Below are positions 2,980-55,253 of a stretch of DNA of 64,000 nucleotides, one piece after another. The notes under the pieces are model-generated. The model ran no database searches. It was not told where the DNA came from and worked only from the letters and a program-made list of their open reading frames with translations. The DNA comes from a virus (Duplodnaviria; Caudoviricetes), in the IMG/VR virus record IMGVR_UViG_3300047160_003616, positions 12,649-76,648 of that record. The stretch is one strand, 5' to 3'. Made by a program: the position numbers and the translations under genes. The number at the start of each line of letters is the position of its first letter. Positions within the stretch are counted from its first letter, which is position 1.

Positions 2980-3290
2980 GCGACGGCCGTCGCGGAGAGG
3001 CCGTTGGAGGCCACCGTCCACACCCGCCCGCTGGGGTCGGTGACGCCGGTGATCTTCACCGACTCGGGCGTGCTGGCCGTGGTGGTGGTGGCCACCGTGG
3101 CACTGGACGCGGTGATGCTCTGAGTGGACCCGTCGGCGGCGGTCACGTTGACCACAAGGCCGGTCACCGGCTTGGTCGTGGTGGTGCTGGTGGTCAGCAC
3201 ATCCCCACCGGAGATGGTCAGGGTCATGGTGTCCCCGGCGTTGTAGGAGGCTTTGTCGAGCGTGGCGGTGACGTTCCAGGTGTCAGGCAT
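2976..3290 (-). CDS. Thr/Val-rich Ig-like beta-sandwich protein
   Basis: ATLDKASYNAGDTMTLTI; ATGA-coupled to the GH16 gene. Confidence 0.7.
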   Translation of the reverse strand: MPDTWNVTATLDKASYNAGDTMTLTISGGDVLTTSTTTTKPVTGLVVNVTAADGSTQSITASSATVATTTTASTPESVKITGVTDPSGRVWTVASNGLSATAVA

Positions 3291-5101: not shown

Positions 5102-5489
5102 TGGCGAAATAAATCCAACATTTGCGCATCTCGGCGTTGGCGTGGGCGCGGATCAAGGCCGGGGTGGTCAACGTGGCCCACTCGGCATCGCCATAACGAA
5201 TACGAACAGCTGTTCGATAACCGTCGCCGACCTCGCCGGTCTTGGCGTTGCGCACCAGGCAGGCCAGCAGCGGCTCGTCGTGGCACCGGTTGATCTCGGC
5301 CACTGCGCAGCACATGCCGTCCACGGTGTTACACCAGTTGAACCCGTTCCCCGGCTCGGAGGCCCCGCAGGACACCCCGTAGCGCGCCACCAGCACCTGT
5401 CGCCAGATCGAGCCGTAGTGGGTGAACGTCCGGTCACTGGCGGTGGTGCTCAGCATGCCGTAGGCCACGATGCCCAGGTCGACCTTCAT
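5091..5489 (-). CDS. Hypothetical protein
   Basis: 132 aa; CAACCAGGAGG upstream. Confidence 0.7.
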   Translation of the reverse strand: MKVDLGIVAYGMLSTTASDRTFTHYGSIWRQVLVARYGVSCGASEPGNGFNWCNTVDGMCCAVAEINRCHDEPLLACLVRNAKTGEVGDGYRTAVRIRYGDAEWATLTTPALIRAHANAEMRKCWIYFARNW

Positions 5490-5574
5490 TCAAATTCCTC
5501 CTGGTTGATTAGCCTGGGCCTTTTATAGCTCAATGCGCTCGGCCCGCAAAGCTAAGCCGAGCGTAGCATCCTTG

Positions 5575-5781
5575 TCAAGTTTGCTGTGACCAGCGGAACC
5601 CGAGCCCGGTGCGCGGGGGCATGACGGCCACGTGGATGGTGTCCCCGTGTTCGGGGTGAAACTCCACCCCGGCGATGGACCACTGGTCCATACCCTTCTC
5701 GTCGGTGCCCTCGTGGATCAACTCGCAGTCGATCACCGTGCCGTCACCGCGGCAGATCTGCACGCCTTCAGGACGGCCCAT
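5575..5781 (-). CDS. Hypothetical protein
   Basis: MGRPEG start in ORF 5575..6063. Confidence 0.55.
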   Translation of the reverse strand: MGRPEGVQICRGDGTVIDCELIHEGTDEKGMDQWSIAGVEFHPEHGDTIHVAVMPPRTGLGFRWSQQT

Positions 5782-6037
5782 GGCGCATCCTCTGGCATTC
5801 GATGCACAGCAGCTTCTCGGGCTGCAACAGATCGGCTCCATTCCACTCGGGCATGAAGCGTCGGCACTGCGCGCAGCGGTACTCCTGGGGCGGGTAGTCG
5901 CCCCAGGACAGCAGCCCGGTATTGATCTGCACCGGCTCATTGGGGTAGCGCAGCCCGGCACGGAACGTGGTTTGCTGGCCCGGTGGGCCCTCTTTGCCGT
6001 AGTCGGCCAGCTCATTTGCCAGGTCGATTTCAGCCAT
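5768..6037 (-). CDS. Zn-ribbon protein
   Basis: CAQC...CIEC. Confidence 0.6.
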   Translation of the reverse strand: MAEIDLANELADYGKEGPPGQQTTFRAGLRYPNEPVQINTGLLSWGDYPPQEYRCAQCRRFMPEWNGADLLQPEKLLCIECQRMRHGPS

Positions 6038-45362: not shown

Positions 45363-47212
45363 AGCAATCGGTTTCCGAAAATCAACCAGGGAATGTTGTC
45401 CTGCTCAGACCGTAGCGCCCGCTCCCGACGATCCCCGTAGCTCAGCAGCTCCTCGGTGCCCTGAGTGACAGCGGAGATCACCCGGCGGTCCTGCTGGATA
45501 TTCCAGACGCGCTCCTCCACCGAGTCTTCTGTCACAAATACATAGTTTGTCAAACCATCCAGATGGCTGTCGGCCCGGTCGATCCGGGAGGCCCGTTGCA
45601 TGGCGTCATCGAAGGAATATGGCGGCTCATACTGTACGACGTAGCGGGCGCACTGCAGGTTGAGCCCATGGCTCCCGGCATCGGAGGTCAGGAAACAGGT
45701 CACGTCCGGGTCGGTCATGAACCGCTCCTTGGCGGCCTGGCTGTCCCTATCGGACTGACCCACGCCATAGTGCACCACGTGTGGCACCTCGATGTGCGGG
45801 GCGATCAGATGCAGGGTCAGGTTGGTCCACTTGGTGAAGACGGCCACCTTGTCGCCGGATTCCCGGATGGATTCCAGCATCTCGTTGAGCTTGGTCAGCT
45901 TGGTCGAGGAGGCGTCGGCGATCAGATGCCCATAGTCGGCCAACAGTTCCTGGCCCACCTCGTGCTCGGTGTGGCGCAGCGCCTCGGGGGTGTTGCACAG
46001 GTAGCGCAGTAGGGCGTAATAGGGCCCCAGGTTCACGCTGCGGCCCCGATTGTCGCACCAGAGGTTCCAGGCCTTGTCGATGATGATGTCGGCCAGCTCG
46101 GCCTCCTCATCGGACGGCTGCACCGGCTCCTTGAGGGTCGCCATGCCGCGGAAGAACTCGCGCACCCCGGGATCGGTTTTGCGCACCGCCTGGGTGTAGC
46201 CCTCCACCCGGTGGCGGATCTCGGTCAGGGCGGGCAGGTCCCACTCGATGACGGTGAGCGGAAAGGACCGATGGTTTTTGGTCTCGATGTCCAGCGTCTT
46301 GACCTCCGCCGCGTAGCGGCGGAGAAACTCTCGGGTGGTGTCCAGCGGGTTGGGCCCGCCCGCCAGGCTGAACACGTCCTTGAAGCGCAATGGGTTACCA
46401 TTGACCACCGACGCGCTCATCGGCCAGACGATGGGCCGACAGATCTTGGTGAGGCGCTCAAAGGCCCGCCGCGCCTTGTTGGGCAGACTGTTGTTGATGC
46501 CGCTGCACACGATGCGGTGACACTCGTCAAAGACGAACAGCACCCGCAGCCCGTGACAGAGCAGTTCCAGCTCGGCGTAGTCCACCCAGAGCTTCTCGTA
46601 GTTGCAGATGTAGGCCTGGTGCTCGGCCGCATAGCCCTTGCGCCGTTTGGCCTTGGTGCCGTCGTTGATTATTGCGTCCAGCTTGGCGTCGTCGGCGAAG
46701 AACCGGCACAGGTCAATCTTGGACTTGGAGACCGTGCAGGCGATCACCAGGTCGATGCGGTCTTGTTCAAACAGATGGGCCGCTCCCGCGGCCGAGCAGA
46801 AACTCTTGCCTGATCCTGTCGCCCAATTGAAAAAGAAATACTCAGATTCCAGGGCACGATTGAGTGCGAATTGTTGGAACCGATGTAGGTCATATCCCTC
46901 GACTTTTAAAGGCAACTGCCAGCGCATCATATTAACGAGAATTTCTTCACAGGATGGACCAAAGACTGGCTCATAACCGTCTTTACATAATTGATCAATG
47001 AAAGAGGGTAAATTGAATAATTCCATCAGCACCAGGTGATGCGAGATCCACTGATGGTAGTGGTTGAAAAAGTCCTGGCGATCCTGCGGCTGGAACAGCA
47101 AAGTGCCAGGGTAGTCGGGACTCTCTTCTACAACAATAAGTTTGTCGAGGTCGATCTCGCCACGTTCTACCTGGCCCACCAATGAGGTGAGGTCATCAGT
47201 GATTGCGTACAT
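45359..47212 (-). CDS. SNF2-like superfamily 2 helicase
   Basis: ATGSGKS, FDECH, SAS..NG, GSHGLNLQ, QRASRIDR. Confidence 0.9.
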   Translation of the reverse strand: MYAITDDLTSLVGQVERGEIDLDKLIVVEESPDYPGTLLFQPQDRQDFFNHYHQWISHHLVLMELFNLPSFIDQLCKDGYEPVFGPSCEEILVNMMRWQLPLKVEGYDLHRFQQFALNRALESEYFFFNWATGSGKSFCSAAGAAHLFEQDRIDLVIACTVSKSKIDLCRFFADDAKLDAIINDGTKAKRRKGYAAEHQAYICNYEKLWVDYAELELLCHGLRVLFVFDECHRIVCSGINNSLPNKARRAFERLTKICRPIVWPMSASVVNGNPLRFKDVFSLAGGPNPLDTTREFLRRYAAEVKTLDIETKNHRSFPLTVIEWDLPALTEIRHRVEGYTQAVRKTDPGVREFFRGMATLKEPVQPSDEEAELADIIIDKAWNLWCDNRGRSVNLGPYYALLRYLCNTPEALRHTEHEVGQELLADYGHLIADASSTKLTKLNEMLESIRESGDKVAVFTKWTNLTLHLIAPHIEVPHVVHYGVGQSDRDSQAAKERFMTDPDVTCFLTSDAGSHGLNLQCARYVVQYEPPYSFDDAMQRASRIDRADSHLDGLTNYVFVTEDSVEERVWNIQQDRRVISAVTQGTEELLSYGDRRERALRSEQDNIPWLIFGNRLL

Positions 47213-47711
47213 CACACACCCAGTCAATAGGATTCCCGGCTAAGCCACGCCGGAAATTGCAGAGCCAACAGGCGGGGACTAAATTCTCTGGATCATTGTT
47301 AAGTCTATCTCCATCCAGATGGTCGACATGGATGCCGTCGTTTTGTCCTTCGCCCCATGTCAATAGCGTGCCGCATTGCCAGTGACACAGATGTAGCCCC
47401 GTGCCGATCTTGTCGTAGAGCACAGCTCGGTGTTCACCAAGCTGATGATTGTCTTGAGCCAGTGGATGCTCCTGTTGGCCGGTCAGAATGCGATATCCTG
47501 CGCCGTCGATGAAGAACCCAGTGGCCAGTTGGTTGTCCTTGAGTCGCTTACCCCGGCGGACCTGTGACATCTGCTCTAGCACCTCGGGTGATCTAACATA
47601 CCGTCCACTATTCCCCTGTCGATGACCACCGTCCGGGTCGGCCCACTTTGCTCTCAGCGCAGCCGACATTCGGGCCCGGTATTCGGGGGTGCGCTCATAG
47701 CTTCCGGCCAT
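47196..47711 (-). CDS. HNH endonuclease
   Basis: EHRAVLYDKIG, VDHLDGDRLNNDPENLVPACWLCN; paralog of 24664..25332. Confidence 0.85.
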   Translation of the reverse strand: MAGSYERTPEYRARMSAALRAKWADPDGGHRQGNSGRYVRSPEVLEQMSQVRRGKRLKDNQLATGFFIDGAGYRILTGQQEHPLAQDNHQLGEHRAVLYDKIGTGLHLCHWQCGTLLTWGEGQNDGIHVDHLDGDRLNNDPENLVPACWLCNFRRGLAGNPIDWVCDVRNH

Positions 47712-47874: not shown

Positions 47875-48240
47875 TTATGCCATGGCGAACTCCTTGAGGG
47901 CCAAGGGATAACCGGCACACATCCGCTTGGCGAACAGGCTGGGTTCTAACGCGATGGCGGTGGCCTGATCGCCGATGTCGGGTTCGATGACCAGATGGTG
48001 CTTGAGACCCAGCGAGAAGGCCAGTGAGTCGAGCACCATCAACGCGGCCTCGTCGGGCACGCCGAGGATCACCACGTTGTTGGAGTCGTGGTGCCAGCGC
48101 TGAATGAGACCGGGGAATTTCAGGGTGAACTCGATACCTGCGTGCAGCGCCTGGGCCATGGCCAGACCTGGAGACAGATCAGCCCGAACAGCCACATATA
48201 GCTTGTCCGGGCCGGGGGTGACGGGATGTTCTACCTACAT
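47875..48240 (-). CDS. Peptidyl-tRNA hydrolase type 2-like protein with in-frame ATG-TAG at the 5' end
   Basis: KLYVAVRADLSPG..AQA.HA, EPDIG...TAIA; the only in-frame ATG upstream (48240) is followed by TAG. Confidence 0.75.
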
Positions 48241-52520: not shown

Positions 52521-52716
52521 ACTGAAGGAAGGTGGGGTGCGCAGCTGTGACTCGCCCGTATGACTGGGGTCTAGATCACGCTTTGGCGGGATGAAGTATC
52601 ACTAAGACCCGATTTGACGCACCATCACCTTCCGCTCAAAGGAGAGGGCTGCGGGTCGGACAGGAACTCTCACGAGATTGAGAGGTGTCCCGCAGCCCCT
52701 CCGGTCCAGGGAGGGT

Positions 52717-52751
52717 GGAGGACTGCGGAGGAAGAGACTCCGCAGTCCTCC
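52717..52751 (-). terminator. 14-bp perfect hairpin downstream of Ro60
   Basis: GGAGGACTGCGGAG-7 nt-CTCCGCAGTCCTCC; no U-tract. Confidence 0.6.
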
Positions 52752-52769: not shown

Positions 52770-54467
52770 CTAGAGGCGATCCGCGACGAAGTCGCTGATC
52801 AGGTTGGGCACCGCGGCATCGAACCCGGCCACATCCAGCGAGCCCGGGTCGGTGGGATCGGCGATGGAGAAGTTGGTCGCGGTCATGCCGACGACCACCT
52901 CCTTCACGTCGTGCCCCACGTGCTGACGGTAGGACTTCAGCGCCTGGAACGGGTGTACGGAACCCGCCCAGGTCTCGTTGTCGGTGAGGACCACGATGCC
53001 GTCGAAGTCCAGGTGATGCTTCTGTGCCCAGATCATCGGCAGGCTGCAGTCCGTAGATCCGAACGGCAGCGCGTCGATGTAGGAGATCACGTCGTCCAGC
53101 CGACGCCGGGCGCTGATGTCCAGCCGGTCAATCGGGCCCCGCATGGGGGGCACAACCAGATTGCTGCGACCATAGCGGGTGTACCCGCCGCCGTAGCCAC
53201 CGGTGAACCCGACCACCTCGGTGGTGCCCGGTGCTTCGGTGGCCAGTGTCACCAGCGCCAGGGCGGCCGAAGCCTCCCGGCAGCTGATCGACAGGTCCCC
53301 GATGGTCGAGGTCATCGACCCGGACACGTCCAGGGCGAGCAGCAACCGCTTATTGGTCGGCTCCACCGCACCGAAGGCGTTGTAGAACGCGGTGTCCAAG
53401 GCGTCGGTCAGATGACGCAGCGGGGTCCAGGTGCTCTTGCCCCGGAAACCGTGACCGCTGGCGTAGGTGCGCTGCGCGATCAGCACGTTAATGGGGTGCA
53501 CCCGGCCAGCCTTGAGCTTCTCAGAGTCCATCAACTGGTCGGCCACCGCGGCAATCCACTGGCCCGTGCCACCGAATACATTGGTCAACCGGGGCAGCTG
53601 ACGCATCAGCGCGGTCTGGGGAACACCTTGCGCGAGCAGTGCCTCCCAGACCTCGGGCGACTTGAGCGCCTCGTCGGGCAACATTTCCCAGGTCATCCCG
53701 TGACCCCGGTTGATGATCTCCACCCACGCCTTGGCCGTGGTGGCGTCCTTGGCGTCCAGGTAATCCGCCATGATGGCCAATTCGCCGTCGATGGCAACAA
53801 CACCACCCTCTTCGACGCTGACGAACGGGATGACCCCACGGGCCACCCAGCCCAACAGGGCGTTACGGTCGGCCGAGATCTCCCCGGTCTTGCCCGCATA
53901 GCCCTTGACCAGGCGCAGCAGGTCGCGGTGCGACCAGTCCTCGCGGGCCCGGTACTTGGTGACCTGGTAGGCCAGCCTGTCCACCGGCTTGAGCTTGTAC
54001 CAGTTGCCGATGGCCCGGTTGAGGCTCGGCCCCCGGCCGCGGAACTGCTCCACGTACTTGTTGAACTGGAACAGCATGGTGCCGGTGCGGCAGACACGGT
54101 GCATGACCGCCAGCGCCTTCTGCCGGGTCTCGGTCGCGTCGGCAGACGCGGCGACGGCCAACGCGAAGATGGCCTGCTTGTTCTTGGGAGCGCGCCCGGC
54201 TTCAGAGACCGCCAGGATGTCGGCGATCATCTCGTCGGGCTTATTGGCTGCCATCCGAAACACGACCTCGGCGTTCTGGCGGGTCAACTCGGCGGCCGAC
54301 GTGTAATACGTGTTGCCGTCGGTGCCCAGCGTCAGAAACCGGTGGAAGCGGGCCTCGTCGCCAATCTCAAAGACGTAGCCGCTTGCGGTGTTTTTGACCT
54401 GATCCTGCCGCGCCTTCTGACCCTGCGGGGTCGAGCGCGTAGTGATCGAGGCCAGGATGTCAGCCAT
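52770..54467 (-). CDS. rsr: Ro60/TROVE-domain RNA-binding protein (Rsr ortholog)
   Basis: QVKN.ASGYVF, RF.RFL.LG.DG.TYY, KYR.RE.WSH.DLLRL, vWA MIDAS DVSGSM, G.TDCSLPM.WA, TDNETW; start MADIL after AAGGAG. Confidence 0.95.
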   Translation of the reverse strand: MADILASITTRSTPQGQKARQDQVKNTASGYVFEIGDEARFHRFLTLGTDGNTYYTSAAELTRQNAEVVFRMAANKPDEMIADILAVSEAGRAPKNKQAIFALAVAASADATETRQKALAVMHRVCRTGTMLFQFNKYVEQFRGRGPSLNRAIGNWYKLKPVDRLAYQVTKYRAREDWSHRDLLRLVKGYAGKTGEISADRNALLGWVARGVIPFVSVEEGGVVAIDGELAIMADYLDAKDATTAKAWVEIINRGHGMTWEMLPDEALKSPEVWEALLAQGVPQTALMRQLPRLTNVFGGTGQWIAAVADQLMDSEKLKAGRVHPINVLIAQRTYASGHGFRGKSTWTPLRHLTDALDTAFYNAFGAVEPTNKRLLLALDVSGSMTSTIGDLSISCREASAALALVTLATEAPGTTEVVGFTGGYGGGYTRYGRSNLVVPPMRGPIDRLDISARRRLDDVISYIDALPFGSTDCSLPMIWAQKHHLDFDGIVVLTDNETWAGSVHPFQALKSYRQHVGHDVKEVVVGMTATNFSIADPTDPGSLDVAGFDAAVPNLISDFVADRL

Positions 54468-54507
54468 AACTTTCTTCTCCTTCTGGTTGGTGTTTCTTCG
54501 GTTGTGC

Positions 54508-54575
54508 GGCGCGGGCACGGGAACGTGGACCGGGTGTCTGAATGGTTTGATAACCGACCCTCTTCAGCTCGCGCC
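54508..54575 (-). ncRNA. Short Y RNA-like element 1 (68 nt)
   Basis: Terminal stem GGCGCG-A-GC/GC-C-CGCGCC plus GUCGGUUA motif. Confidence 0.75.
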
Positions 54576-54591
54576 ATGAAGTTGTGTGCGC

Positions 54592-54662
54592 GGGGCGGGC
54601 ACGTTAGTGATGACCGGGGTATCCATTTCCAGTAGGTAACCGACCATCGTCCAGCTCGCCCC
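54592..54662 (-). ncRNA. Short Y RNA-like element 2 (71 nt)
   Basis: Same terminal stem; second helix GAUGGUCGG/CCGGUCAUC. Confidence 0.75.
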
Positions 54663-54685
54663 AACGCAAAGCCTTTCAGGATAAG

Positions 54686-54827
54686 GGTGCGGGCACGGGT
54701 TTGCAACCGACATTTAGCTGCTCTACCAGGCTGAGCTACGCGCTCCGGGGTGGTTACCGGACCACGACTGGATTTGAACCAGCGACCCGCTCCTTAACTG
54801 GGTAACCGACCGCATTCAGCTCGCACC
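54686..54827 (-). ncRNA. YrlA-like Y RNA 3 with permuted tRNA domain
   Basis: T arm CUGGUUCAAAUCCAG precedes D arm UAGCUCAGCCUGGUAGAGC; closed acceptor stem. Confidence 0.85.
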
Positions 54828-54840
54828 GTTTGTCCTGTGG

Positions 54841-54984
54841 GGTGTGGGCACGGGATTGCAAACCGACTCGGGCTTGCGCCCTGGCGACTTAGGCCACTCG
54901 TCCATACGCCCGAAGGCGCACTGGGATTTGAACCCAGGCTCTCCCTTTTGCAGAAAGATAATCGACTCGCGTTCAGCTCACACC
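54841..54984 (-). ncRNA. YrlA-like Y RNA 4 with permuted tRNA domain
   Basis: T arm CUGGGUUCAAAUCCCAG, acceptor stem capped by UUCG, D arm GGACGAGUGGCCUAAGUC. Confidence 0.85.
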
Positions 54985-55004
54985 GACGTATGTAGTTGTC
55001 AAGT

Positions 55005-55126
55005 GAGGGTGCGGGCACGGGGTTGCCGACCGGGTAGCCCCGAAGGGCAATCACCCGCGAACGGGTGACAGGACTCGAACCTGCAATAACCATTGATAAC
55101 CGATCATGCTGTCAGCTCGCACCCTC
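55005..55126 (-). ncRNA. YrlA-like Y RNA 5
   Basis: T arm GCAGGUUCGAGUCCUGU, UUCG-capped acceptor stem, D arm replaced by GCCC-UUCG-GGGC. Confidence 0.8.
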
Positions 55127-55140
55127 ATCTTCAGTTTTAG

Positions 55141-55213
55141 GAGTCGGGCACGTTTGCAGCACCGGAGTGAACTTTTTGTTGTAAAGGTTAACCGACGCCA
55201 TCCAGCTCGACTC
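55141..55213 (-). ncRNA. Short Y RNA-like element 6 (73 nt)
   Basis: GAGUCG-A-GC/GC-C-CGACUC terminal stem, GUCGGUUA motif. Confidence 0.75.
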
Positions 55214-55224
55214 GCAACCGTCCC

Positions 55225-55253
55225 AGGTTAAACCCGATTTTTTATCTTTGCAA
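55225..55253 (-). promoter_or_regulatory. SigA-type promoter for the Y RNA-Ro60 operon
   Basis: TTGCAA-17 nt-TAACCT, 12 nt upstream of element 6. Confidence 0.6.

What the first reader, a model, noticed from the sequence alone, without database searches (positions are those of the whole stretch)
52770..55253. Phage Ro60 operon with six tandem Y RNA-like elements of two size classes
Seen: promoter, six elements, then Ro60. All six share a terminal stem with an invariant A-C mismatch and compensatory changes (GGCGCG, GGGGCG, GGUGCG, GGUGUG, GGUGCG, GAGUCG 5' arms each matched at the 3' end) and the GUCG(G/A)UUA motif; a second helix was checked in elements 2 and 3. Elements 3-5 carry a permuted tRNA domain (T arm, looped acceptor stem, then D arm) with different D-arm types; elements 1, 2 and 6 lack it. 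Established: bacterial Ro60 (Rsr) binds Y RNAs, YrlA-class RNAs mimic tRNA, and Rsr/Y RNA can tether PNPase; phage-borne examples are known. Inference: six diversified tRNA mimics could be decoys or adaptors against different tRNA-targeting defences, or modular Ro60 adaptors. No RtcB is seen in the window.
Basis: partly seen in the sequence, partly recalled or inferred. Interest (0 to 1): 0.85.

Follow-up and report, generated by a model that had tools for sequence, protein, structure and literature searches.

The report
Phage Ro60 gene with six Y RNAs
An uncultured actinobacteria-type phage carries a Ro60 RNA-binding protein gene preceded by six small partner RNA (Y RNA) genes, three of which imitate tRNAs in different ways. 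The RNA-protein pairing is already known, but this is an unusually large and varied set, and I found smaller sets beside Ro60 genes in many phages and actinobacteria.

Summary
Everything lies on the minus strand: a sigma-70-like promoter, six stem-closed RNA modules (55213-54508), a full-length Ro60/Rsr gene (54467-52770) and terminator hairpins.

All six modules share a 9-position terminal stem with an A.C mismatch, a second helix and a (G/A)UUAYC motif. A covariance model built from this shared "handle" finds exactly these six in the 76.6-kb record. In 82 other phage Ro60 loci it gave 178 more hits, 177 on the Ro60 strand. Base-pair covariation is strong.

Three modules are short (68-73 nt). 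Three are long, YrlA-type permuted tRNA mimics: D has a canonical D arm, C a class-II-type D arm, and B a UUCG hairpin in its place.

I counted 2 modules in phage Farewell, 3 in Bxz1, 4 in the nearest relative, 5 in two viral contigs, 7 in Gordonia phage Forza, and 2-4 beside chromosomal Ro60 genes of Actinomycetota. Earlier notes of this scan report similar arrays on other DNA. Six is still the longest contiguous array among the 163 loci I searched.

The most likely function is a set of processed Y RNAs that load Ro60 and tether it to host factors such as PNPase or proteins that bind the tRNA elbow. The anti-defence decoy idea is untested.

The parts
55225..55253 (-). Putative sigma-70-type promoter: -35 TTGCAA (55253-55248), 17-nt spacer, -10 TAACCT (55230-55225). 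The expected transcription start is a few nt upstream of module A.
   Evidence: Read from the sequence. L200 has the same geometry (TTGCTG, 17 nt, TACTCT, 7 nt, UUGC, first module) although the spacer sequence differs. The consensus scanner did not find it, so this part is inferred.
55141..55213 (-). Module A: short Y RNA (73 nt). Stem GAGUCG-A-GC / GC-C-CGACUC, helix 2 GGCGUCGG/CCGGUGCU, and an A-rich apical loop.
   Evidence: R2 48.9 bits, E 2.4e-7. The ortholog in L200 (3028-3103) has the same stem, and its helix 2 carries a C-G to G-C flip.
55004..55127 (-). Module B: long Y RNA (124 nt; the stem can extend to 12 bp). It has a T arm (CAGG-UUCGAGU-CCUG) and a closed acceptor-like stem (CACCCG-UUCG-CGGGUG). 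A GCCC-UUCG-GGGC hairpin stands where a D arm would be.
   Evidence: R2 49.7 bits. Rfam YrlA 24.1 bits, E 0.014, below the gathering score. The L200 ortholog (3115-3234) keeps the same three hairpins with different stem sequences.
54841..54984 (-). Module C: long Y RNA (144 nt). In order it has a 5-bp hairpin with a 7-nt anticodon-loop-like loop (CUGCAAA), a T arm, a UUCG-closed acceptor stem, U-G, a class-II-type D arm (GAC-GAGUGGCCUAA-GUC) and an extra GGGC-GCAA-GCCC hairpin.
   Evidence: R2 51.1 bits, E 8e-8. The same D-arm type, with covarying 3-bp stems, occurs in L127, L173 and Nocardia L253.
54686..54827 (-). Module D: long Y RNA (142 nt), the canonical YrlA type. It has a T arm (GCUGG-UUCAAAU-CCAGU), a 10-bp closed acceptor stem with an 8-nt loop, and a class-I D arm (GCUC-AGCCUGGUA-GAGC).
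   Evidence: Rfam YrlA 36.2 bits, E 4.3e-6, below the gathering score of 69. R2 46.1 bits. It aligns with 15 phage and bacterial YrlA-type RNAs, and that alignment shows covariation in every helix that varies.
54592..54662 (-). Module E: short Y RNA (71 nt). Stem GGGGCG-A-GC / GC-C-CGCCCC; helix 2 GAUGGUCGG/CCGGUCAUC.
   Evidence: R2 72.2 bits, E 2e-12. The ortholog in L200 (3399-3469) is preceded by the same spacer.
54508..54575 (-). Module F: short Y RNA (68 nt). Stem GGCGCG-A-GC / GC-C-CGCGCC; helix 2 GGGUCGG/CCGGUCC.
   Evidence: R2 57.2 bits, E 3.7e-9. L200 has no counterpart at this position.
52770..54467 (-). Ro60/Rsr gene (565 aa), with an ATG start at 54467 and the ribosome-binding site GGAGAAG at 54480-54474.
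   Evidence: Pfam TROVE and vWA_Ro60. Full-length matches to PDB 9nen, 2nvo and 1yvp. The nearest relatives are 84-64% identical metagenome proteins; mycobacteriophage Ro60s are about 52-54% identical.
52641..52751 (-). Two strong hairpins just after the Ro60 stop codon (about 52751-52717 and 52702-52641). They are the likely end of the operon.
   Evidence: Fold energy -91.4 kcal/mol, z -4.7, with none of 200 shuffles folding as well. There is no U tract, and the terminator scanner was negative, so terminator function is inferred.

Best explanation
This is a phage Ro60 (Rsr) operon. One promoter drives a polycistronic transcript holding six Y RNA genes and then the Ro60 mRNA.

Each Y RNA has the same "handle": a terminal stem with an A.C mismatch, a small internal loop, a second helix and a (G/A)UUAYC motif. 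By analogy with characterised Y RNAs, this handle is the Ro60 docking site. Each RNA also has its own apical "cargo".

Three cargos are plain loops (a minimal, YrlB-like class). Three are circularly permuted tRNA-like domains of the YrlA kind: one canonical, one with a class-II D arm and extra hairpins, and one reduced to a T arm plus two UUCG hairpins.

Host RNases probably cut the short A/C/U-rich spacers and trim back to the stems. The six RNAs then load phage Ro60 and act as alternative adaptors or gates, tethering it to host partners such as PNPase or proteins that recognise the tRNA elbow.

Shown here: the gene order, the shared handle, the covariation, the tRNA-like anatomy and the recurrence beside Ro60 elsewhere. 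Inferred: transcription as one unit, processing, Ro60 binding and the identity of the partners.
For: - The protein is a genuine Ro60.
- Model R2 finds six hits in the 76.6-kb record, all in the array.
- Across the window and 82 other phage Ro60 loci, 183 of 184 R2 hits lie on the Ro60 strand, most of them just upstream of the gene.
- Beside 80 actinobacterial chromosomal Ro60 genes there are 195 hits.
- Handle covariation: 16 of 18 pairs show compensatory changes, and 93.8% of cells pair against 35-42% when partners are slid.
- On a plain MAFFT alignment of 16 long RNAs, stem 1, helix 2, the T arm and the acceptor stem (6 of 6 pairs compensatory) are supported, and the D arm is invariant.
- Module D matches Rfam YrlA at E 4e-6, and module B at E 0.014.
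- The nearest relative, L200 (Ro60 77% identical), keeps the promoter geometry, the spacers and orthologs of A, B, D and E.
- Spacers are 13-23 nt, too short to hold internal promoters.
- Literature: Rsr binds YrlA and YrlB in M. smegmatis, and YrlA-like RNAs occur in 22 phages (PMC4201824). Thermus phage phiLo Ro60 binds two upstream Yrl RNAs and forms a complex with host PNPase (PMC12135203). YrlA folds like a tRNA with a closed acceptor stem (10.1101/312249).
Against: - There are no expression, processing or binding data for this uncultured phage.
- No Rfam family reaches its gathering score; the YrlA matches of 36 and 24 bits compare with a threshold of 69.
- The published GNCGAA(N)G motif is present only as a variant (G-N-GCGAG-CUG).
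- The promoter and terminator were not found by the consensus scans.
- Module B lacks a D loop, so it cannot form a normal tRNA elbow.
- The partner proteins are unknown even for the well-studied YrlA RNAs.
Confidence: 0.8

Rival explanations
1. The tRNA-like modules are decoys or sponges for host tRNA-targeting defences (anticodon nucleases, tRNA-modifying toxins). Each mimic would protect a different tRNA class, and Ro60 would serve mainly to stabilise them.
For: - The three long modules present different tRNA-like features: class-I, class-II and reduced.
- Several long Y RNAs carry a hairpin with a 7-nt loop shaped like an anticodon loop (Y-U-NNN-A-A). The "anticodon" differs between elements, and ARAGORN even calls some of them tRNAs.
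- The phage also encodes a PTH2-like protein.
- In other phages Ro60 loci often sit inside tRNA gene arrays.
Against: - The same multi-module arrays, including a class-II type, occur beside chromosomal Ro60 genes of free-living Actinomycetota. The design is therefore not specific to phage counter-defence.
- Three of the six modules have no tRNA features.
- In modules D and B the anticodon-like hairpin is only 2-4 bp and lacks U33.
- No tRNA-targeting system was identified here.
Confidence: 0.12
2. The array acts mainly in cis, as a structured leader of the Ro60 mRNA. Ro60 would bind its own 5' UTR handles to autoregulate translation or mRNA stability, so the modules would not be free trans-acting RNAs.
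For: - The array abuts the ribosome-binding site: module F ends 27 nt before it.
- There is one promoter and no terminator between the modules and the gene.
Against: - In M. smegmatis, Salmonella and D. radiodurans the homologous elements accumulate as discrete Rsr-bound RNAs (PMC4201824).
- In Forza, four modules lie downstream of Ro60 among tRNA genes. In S. Typhimurium the Y RNAs are encoded 3' of rsr (10.1101/312249). A leader position is therefore not required.
Confidence: 0.06
3. The modules are decaying tRNA-derived repeats or chance stem-loops with no function.
For: Only that there are no expression data and no Rfam match above threshold.
Against: - Compensatory changes occur in nearly every pair.
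- The hits show strict strand and position linkage to Ro60 across 163 loci.
- Orthologs are conserved in L200 despite diverged spacers.
- There are no hits elsewhere in the record.
Confidence: 0.02

Closest known systems
Mycobacterium smegmatis Rsr with YrlA and YrlB (Chen et al. 2014, PMC4201824)
   Same: - The Y RNAs are encoded 5' of Ro60 on the same strand.
- YrlA is a circularly permuted tRNA mimic (T arm, closed acceptor stem, D arm) on a stem formed by the 5' and 3' ends.
- The handle has the same A.C mismatch in Mycolicibacterium loci.
   Different: - Two RNAs there, six here.
- The window's short modules (68-73 nt) have no T arm, whereas YrlB is said to have one.
- Here there are three distinct tRNA-like cargos, including a class-II D arm and a version without a D loop.
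- M. smegmatis YrlA is cut by RNase P and receives CCA; modules B and C have tight UUCG-capped acceptor stems, which I infer make this unlikely.
YrlA-like RNAs of cluster C mycobacteriophages (ET08 and Bxz1 type; PMC4201824)
   Same: - A myovirus of actinobacteria whose tail and baseplate proteins match phage tail/baseplate families (PHROGs) and which has a PolIII-alpha gene.
- Ro60 about 52% identical.
- Same handle and same YrlA cargo.
   Different: - Bxz1 has three modules (short, long, short) by my count. The paper reports only the YrlA-like one.
- In Bxz1 the stem has G-C where the window has A.C.
Thermus phage phiLo Ro60 with Yrl1 and Yrl2 (PMC12135203)
   Same: - A phage Ro60 with Y-like RNAs upstream.
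- That work showed experimentally that the protein binds them and that a complex forms with host PNPase. This is the best functional precedent.
   Different: Two RNAs, identified there by a CGAA motif; the host lineage is distant; no tRNA-like cargo was found in the parts of the paper I read.
Deinococcus radiodurans Rsr-Yrn1-PNPase (RYPER) complex
   Same: It supplies the adaptor logic: one end of the Y RNA binds Ro60 and the other tethers an effector. Several small RNAs are encoded upstream of rsr (PMC4201824).
   Different: Yrn1 belongs to a separate lineage whose T and D arms are in a different orientation. PNPase tethering is not shown for this phage.
Salmonella Typhimurium YrlA crystal structure (10.1101/312249; PDB 6cu1)
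   Same: An L-shaped tRNA fold with a closed acceptor stem and conserved D and T stems. Modules D and C keep the GG of the D loop and the UUC of the T loop.
   Different: - Salmonella yrlA lies 3' of rsr in an rtcBA operon under RtcR control. Here there is no RtcB and the array is 5' of the gene.
- Actinobacterial and phage versions carry an extra hairpin before the T arm.

Membership tests
Ro60 / Rsr protein (TROVE ring plus vWA domain) | TROVE HEAT-repeat domain followed by the Ro60-type vWA domain, at full length | tested here: met
   Pfam PF05731 1.9e-39 and PF25045 1.6e-55. Residues 2-564 align to PDB Ro60 chains, E 1e-96 to 2e-91.
Y RNA (Ro60-associated noncoding RNA) | Encoded next to Ro60 on the same strand | tested here: met
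   All six modules lie 41-746 nt upstream of the Ro60 start on the minus strand. The same linkage holds in 163 loci.
Y RNA (Ro60-associated noncoding RNA) | The 5' and 3' ends pair into a conserved stem that carries the Ro60 binding site | tested here: met
   A 9-position stem plus a second helix, with 16 of 18 pairs showing compensatory changes. That this stem is the binding site is inferred.
Y RNA (Ro60-associated noncoding RNA) | Published 5'-strand motif GNCGAA(N)G (bacterial YrlA class) | tested here: inconclusive
   The modules have G-N-GCGAG-CUG. Bxz1 has GGCCGAG. These are related to the published motif but not identical to it.
Y RNA (Ro60-associated noncoding RNA) | Accumulates as a discrete RNA bound by Ro60 | not testable with these tools
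   Needs RNA-seq or Northern blots and a Ro60 pull-down.
YrlA (Rfam RF02553) | Score at or above the Rfam gathering threshold (69 bits) | tested here: not met
   Module D scores 36.2 bits (E 4.3e-6) and module B 24.1 bits (E 0.014); module C gives no match. Relatives also fall below threshold at 33-52 bits, so the model under-detects this lineage.
YrlA (Rfam RF02553) | Permuted tRNA-like domain in the order T arm, closed acceptor stem, D arm, with T-loop and D-loop elbow nucleotides | tested here: met
   - Module D meets this and has a class-I D arm.
- Module C meets it with a class-II-type D arm.
- Covariation across 16 homologs supports the T arm and acceptor stem.
- Module B does not meet it: there is no D loop, only a UUCG hairpin.
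tRNA gene | Canonical cloverleaf with free acceptor ends and an anticodon arm | tested here: not met
   ARAGORN finds no tRNA in the window. The Rfam tRNA model gives 16 bits, E 2.8.

The most novel reading that the evidence does not exclude
Ro60-linked Y RNAs form a modular "handle plus cargo" system that evolves by duplication and cargo replacement. In this phage the array would have expanded to six so that one Ro60 can be steered to, or compete for, several distinct classes of tRNA-binding factor: class-I and class-II tRNA mimics, anticodon-loop-like hairpins with different triplets, and minimal modules without cargo. Possible targets include tRNA-directed host defences.

In favour: compared with the 4-module relative L200, C keeps the stem "barcode" of L200 module 3 but carries a different cargo. 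D keeps that module's cargo. F keeps the barcode of L200 module 2 without its cargo, and B keeps that cargo.
Probability: 0.15. Interest if true: 0.8.

Novelty: new variant of a known kind. Interest (0 to 1): 0.45.

Why it matters
The papers I could read describe at most two Ro60-bound partner RNAs per bacterium or phage, and treat the YrlA tRNA-like domain as nearly invariant in its D and T stems.

This locus, and the survey it prompted, point to a different picture in Actinomycetota and their phages. There, Ro60 normally comes with a family of 2-7 RNAs that share one docking handle and display different cargos. These include a class-II-type tRNA mimic and cargo-less forms. Current Rfam models and phage annotations miss them, and in places they are annotated or called as tRNAs.

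That gives a concrete and testable handle on an open question: what the tRNA-like end of bacterial Y RNAs binds. Cultured phages with such arrays (Forza on Gordonia terrae, Bxz1-type and Farewell on M. smegmatis) make experiments feasible.

For this window alone the gain is modest. It is a large and well-preserved example of a known ribonucleoprotein system.

Tried and rejected
- **Rfam at gathering thresholds:** no hit in the window. Only sub-threshold YrlA matches appear at E-value thresholds.
- **Megablast of the locus against phage genomes:** no match.
- **The search for related loci with the single Ro60 protein:** nothing in viral contigs and only two loci in metagenomes. An alignment query was needed. 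The same alignment found nothing in genome contigs; a Mycolicibacterium Ro60 query worked.
- **IUPAC pattern scan of viral contigs** (GCGAGCTG...TCGGTTA): single, apparently chance matches, not followed up.
- **The look-up of encoding contigs:** The contigs of the closest Ro60 proteins (84-75% identity) could not be fetched, apart from L200.
- **First stem-finder script:** too permissive and discarded. A stricter descriptor found all six modules but with background hits, so counts in this report rest on the covariance models.
- **Model R1 (built from two sequences):** missed module C. R2 recovered it.
- **Single-sequence MFE folds:** not significant on their own, z -0.6 to -2.1. The structural claims rest on covariation instead.
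- **Handle/cargo identity matrix:** the handles are all 60-87% alike, so cargo swapping is suggested by the stem barcodes but not proven.
- **D-loop comparison with real tRNAs:** a check of whether the class-II D-loop motif matches real tRNA-Ser/Tyr genes in the fetched loci was uninformative. The resemblance to Ser/Tyr-type D loops therefore rests on my own knowledge.
- **Literature:** the Annual Review on bacterial Ro60 (PMC10870794) and the supplements of Chen 2014 are not held. I cannot exclude that multi-copy arrays are tabulated there.
Full report
**What is there**

The window is part of a 76.6-kb IMG/VR virus record estimated to be about half complete. Its genes point to an actinobacteria-type myovirus: a baseplate J protein, a 1432-aa minor tail protein, a virion protein, a PolIII-alpha and a helicase. 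Its Ro60 is about 52-54% identical to those of mycobacteriophages such as Farewell, Alice and Bxz1.

The finding lies on the minus strand. The ORF 54467..52770 encodes a 565-aa Ro60/Rsr. It matches Pfam TROVE and vWA_Ro60. It also aligns end to end with solved Ro60 structures from an entry named RO60 (9nen), Deinococcus (2nvo) and Xenopus (1yvp), at E 1e-96 to 2e-91.

Between the stop codon of the tail gene (55270) and the Ro60 ribosome-binding site (54480-54474) lie six stem-closed modules:

| Module | Coordinates | Length | Class |
|---|---|---|---|
| A | 55213-55141 | 73 nt | short |
| B | 55127-55004 | 124 nt | long |
| C | 54984-54841 | 144 nt | long |
| D | 54827-54686 | 142 nt | long |
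| E | 54662-54592 | 71 nt | short |
| F | 54575-54508 | 68 nt | short |

They are separated by A/C/U-rich spacers of 13-23 nt.

**The shared handle**

Each module begins with six variable bases followed by A-GC. The six-base arms are GAGUCG, GGUGCG, GGUGUG, GGUGCG, GGGGCG and GGCGCG. Each module ends with GC-C followed by the exact complement of its own arm.

After a 3-7 nt internal loop comes a second helix. Its conserved core pairs (G/A)UCG(G/A) on the 5' strand with (C/U)CGG(U/C) on the 3' strand, and its outer pairs differ from module to module. A (G/A)UUAYC motif follows.

**More than chance**

I built a covariance model from module E and the short RNA of phage Farewell (R1). It found five of the six modules and nothing credible elsewhere in the window.

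I rebuilt the model from 33 hits (R2). R2 scores all six modules at E 2e-12 to 1e-6 and finds no other match in the whole virus record.

Across the window and 82 other phage Ro60 loci, R2 gave 184 hits. Of these, 183 lie on the Ro60 strand, mostly within a few hundred bases upstream of the gene.

On the model-fitted alignment, 16 of the 18 handle pairs show changes on both sides. Standard pairs form in 93.8% of cells, against 35-42% when the partners are slid, and no shuffle reaches the observed values. Single-sequence fold energies are not significant by themselves, so the structural case rests on covariation.

**The cargos**

Modules A, E and F carry only a 17-23 nt loop.

Modules B, C and D carry a permuted tRNA-like domain in the YrlA order: T arm, closed acceptor-like stem, D arm.

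- **Module D** is canonical. It has a GCUGG-UUCAAAU-CCAGU T arm, a 10-bp closed acceptor stem and a GCUC-AGCCUGGUA-GAGC D arm. It matches Rfam YrlA at 36 bits (E 4e-6), below the gathering score of 69.
- **Support for D's architecture.** A plain MAFFT alignment of D with 15 long RNAs from phages and from Mycolicibacterium and other actinobacterial chromosomes supports stem 1, helix 2, the T arm and the acceptor stem. All six counted acceptor pairs are compensatory. The D arm is invariant. Overall 91% of cells pair, against 33-44% when partners are slid.
- **Module C** has U-G followed by a 3-bp D stem and an 11-nt loop (GAC-GAGUGGCCUAA-GUC), the class-II tRNA pattern. Before its T arm it has a 5-bp hairpin with a 7-nt loop like an anticodon loop. 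After its D arm it has an extra GCAA-capped hairpin.
- **Module C's D arm recurs.** The same D-arm type, with covarying stems (GCA/UGC and GUC/GAC), occurs in viral contigs L127 and L173 and in a Nocardia chromosome. That its loop resembles Ser/Tyr-type tRNA D loops is from my own knowledge and was not tested.
- **Module B** keeps the T arm and a UUCG-capped acceptor stem. It has a GCCC-UUCG-GGGC hairpin instead of a D arm. Its ortholog in L200 keeps the three hairpins with different stem sequences.

**Operon structure**

Upstream of module A lies TTGCAA, a 17-nt spacer, TAACCT, then 7 nt and UUGC before the first stem.

The nearest relative I could fetch is L200, a metagenome contig whose Ro60 is 77% identical and which has the same large ORF upstream. 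It has TTGCTG, 17 nt, TACTCT, 7 nt and UUGC at the same positions, although the spacer sequence differs. This supports a promoter that the consensus scanner missed.

The spacers are too short to hold further promoters, and no terminator lies within the array. Two very stable hairpins follow the Ro60 stop codon (z -4.7). A single transcript that is processed into six RNAs plus the Ro60 mRNA is therefore the simplest reading, but it is inferred.

**How unusual is six?**

| Locus | Modules found with R2 |
|---|---|
| Phage Farewell | 2 (long, short) |
| Phage Bxz1 and relatives | 3 (short, long, short) |
| L200 (nearest relative) | 4 (orthologs of A, B, D, E) |
| Viral contigs L127 and L173 | 5 each |
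| Gordonia phage Forza | 7 (3 upstream of Ro60; 4 downstream among its tmRNA and tRNA genes) |
| 80 chromosomal Ro60 loci of Actinomycetota | 195 hits in all, typically 2-4 per locus; the M. smegmatis-type mycolicibacteria have the published pair |

Multi-module arrays are thus the rule in this lineage. The window's six form the longest contiguous array among the 163 loci searched, but they are not a different kind of thing.

Notes from earlier runs of this scan report Ro60-linked arrays of 4-10 handle-sharing RNAs on other phage DNA. I did not test those.

In the papers I could read, the documented numbers are:
- two Y RNAs in M. smegmatis and Salmonella;
- a YrlA-like RNA in 22 phages (PMC4201824);
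- two Yrl RNAs in Thermus phage phiLo (PMC12135203).

The relevant review and the supplements were not available.

**Mechanism**

By homology, the handle is the Ro60 docking site and the cargo is the effector end. The best precedents are:
- the Deinococcus Rsr-Yrn1-PNPase machine (PMC4201824);
- phiLo Ro60, which binds its two upstream RNAs and assembles with host PNPase (PMC12135203);
- the Salmonella YrlA structure, whose authors expect partners that recognise the tRNA elbow (10.1101/312249).

I therefore favour six alternative adaptors or gates for one phage Ro60.

- the same arrays occur in bacterial chromosomes;
- half of the modules have no tRNA features;
- module B lacks a D loop.

No RtcB is present in the record. 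A PTH2-like ORF lies 4.6 kb away.

**Array evolution**

The variable stem positions act like barcodes.
- L200 modules 1 and 4 share barcodes with A and E.
- L200 module 3 has C's barcode (GGUGUG) but D's cargo.
- L200 module 2 has an F-like barcode (GCGCG) but B's cargo.

This fits duplication followed by cargo replacement or loss. The handles are too similar overall to prove it.

**Verdict**

This is a well-preserved and unusually large member of the Ro60-Y RNA system, with cargo variants I did not find described. Its main value is as an entry point to a broader, under-annotated pattern.

Noticed in passing
L005 (Gordonia phage Forza, MK814760) 2575-2942 and 5394-6028: Forza carries seven handle-matching modules, none annotated as Y RNA. 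Four lie downstream of Ro60, between the tmRNA and tRNA genes. The GenBank 'tRNA-Gln' at locus 5543-5610 falls inside a 128-nt module (5540-5667) and gets no Rfam tRNA match at E<=0.01, so it is probably a misannotated Y RNA.
   Followed up: partly
L127 2859-2936; L173 2847-2919; L143 3164-3233; L164 3187-3259; L005 5729-5817: ARAGORN calls tRNAs (Arg-tct, Ser-tga, Phe-gaa, Phe-gaa, Leu-gag) inside long Y RNA modules. The hairpin before the T arm looks like an anticodon arm, with a 7-nt Y-U-NNN-A-A loop. Phage tRNA counts may be inflated by such calls.
   Followed up: partly
L208-L287 (80 actinobacterial chromosomal Ro60 loci): Chromosomal Ro60 genes of Mycobacteriaceae, Nocardia, Nocardioides, Promicromonospora, Cellulomonas, Propionibacteriaceae and others have 2-4 handle-matching modules upstream, often with two or three long tRNA-like ones. 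In Promicromonospora loci L237 and L240 a further pair lies on the opposite strand about 1.5-2 kb upstream.
   Followed up: partly
window 47875-48195 (-): A PTH2-like (peptidyl-tRNA hydrolase 2) ORF of 106 aa (Pfam E 3.7e-7), with an HNH endonuclease ORF (47196-47711) just downstream of it on the minus strand. I checked only the Pfam match.
   Followed up: partly
window 55140-55128, 54685-54663; L200 3104-3114, 3378-3398; L004 about 2674-2693; L127 about 3154-3173: Spacers between modules repeatedly contain (A/C)CUGAA (for example AAACUGAAGA, CCUGAAAGGCUUUGC), and the D-to-E spacer is nearly identical in L200. This may be a processing signal. A weak RAGATH-26 match (19.7 bits, E 0.69) overlaps one such spacer.
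   Followed up: no
window 55269-55254 (-): A small hairpin (CAGGU-CAAAAA-ACCUG) lies immediately after the stop codon of the 1432-aa minor tail gene and directly before the -35 element of the Y RNA/Ro60 promoter. It may terminate or insulate the tail operon.
   Followed up: no
all handles (e.g. window 54643-54634; L004 2713-2728): The conserved GGUUAYC after helix 2, and the Bxz1 5' strand GGCAGGCCGAG, resemble as I recall them the 5' part of vertebrate Y RNAs (GGCUGGUCCGA ... GAGUUAUC). This is a recollection and was not tested. In long modules the UUA can pair with a conserved UAA after the D arm in only about 70% of cells.
   Followed up: no
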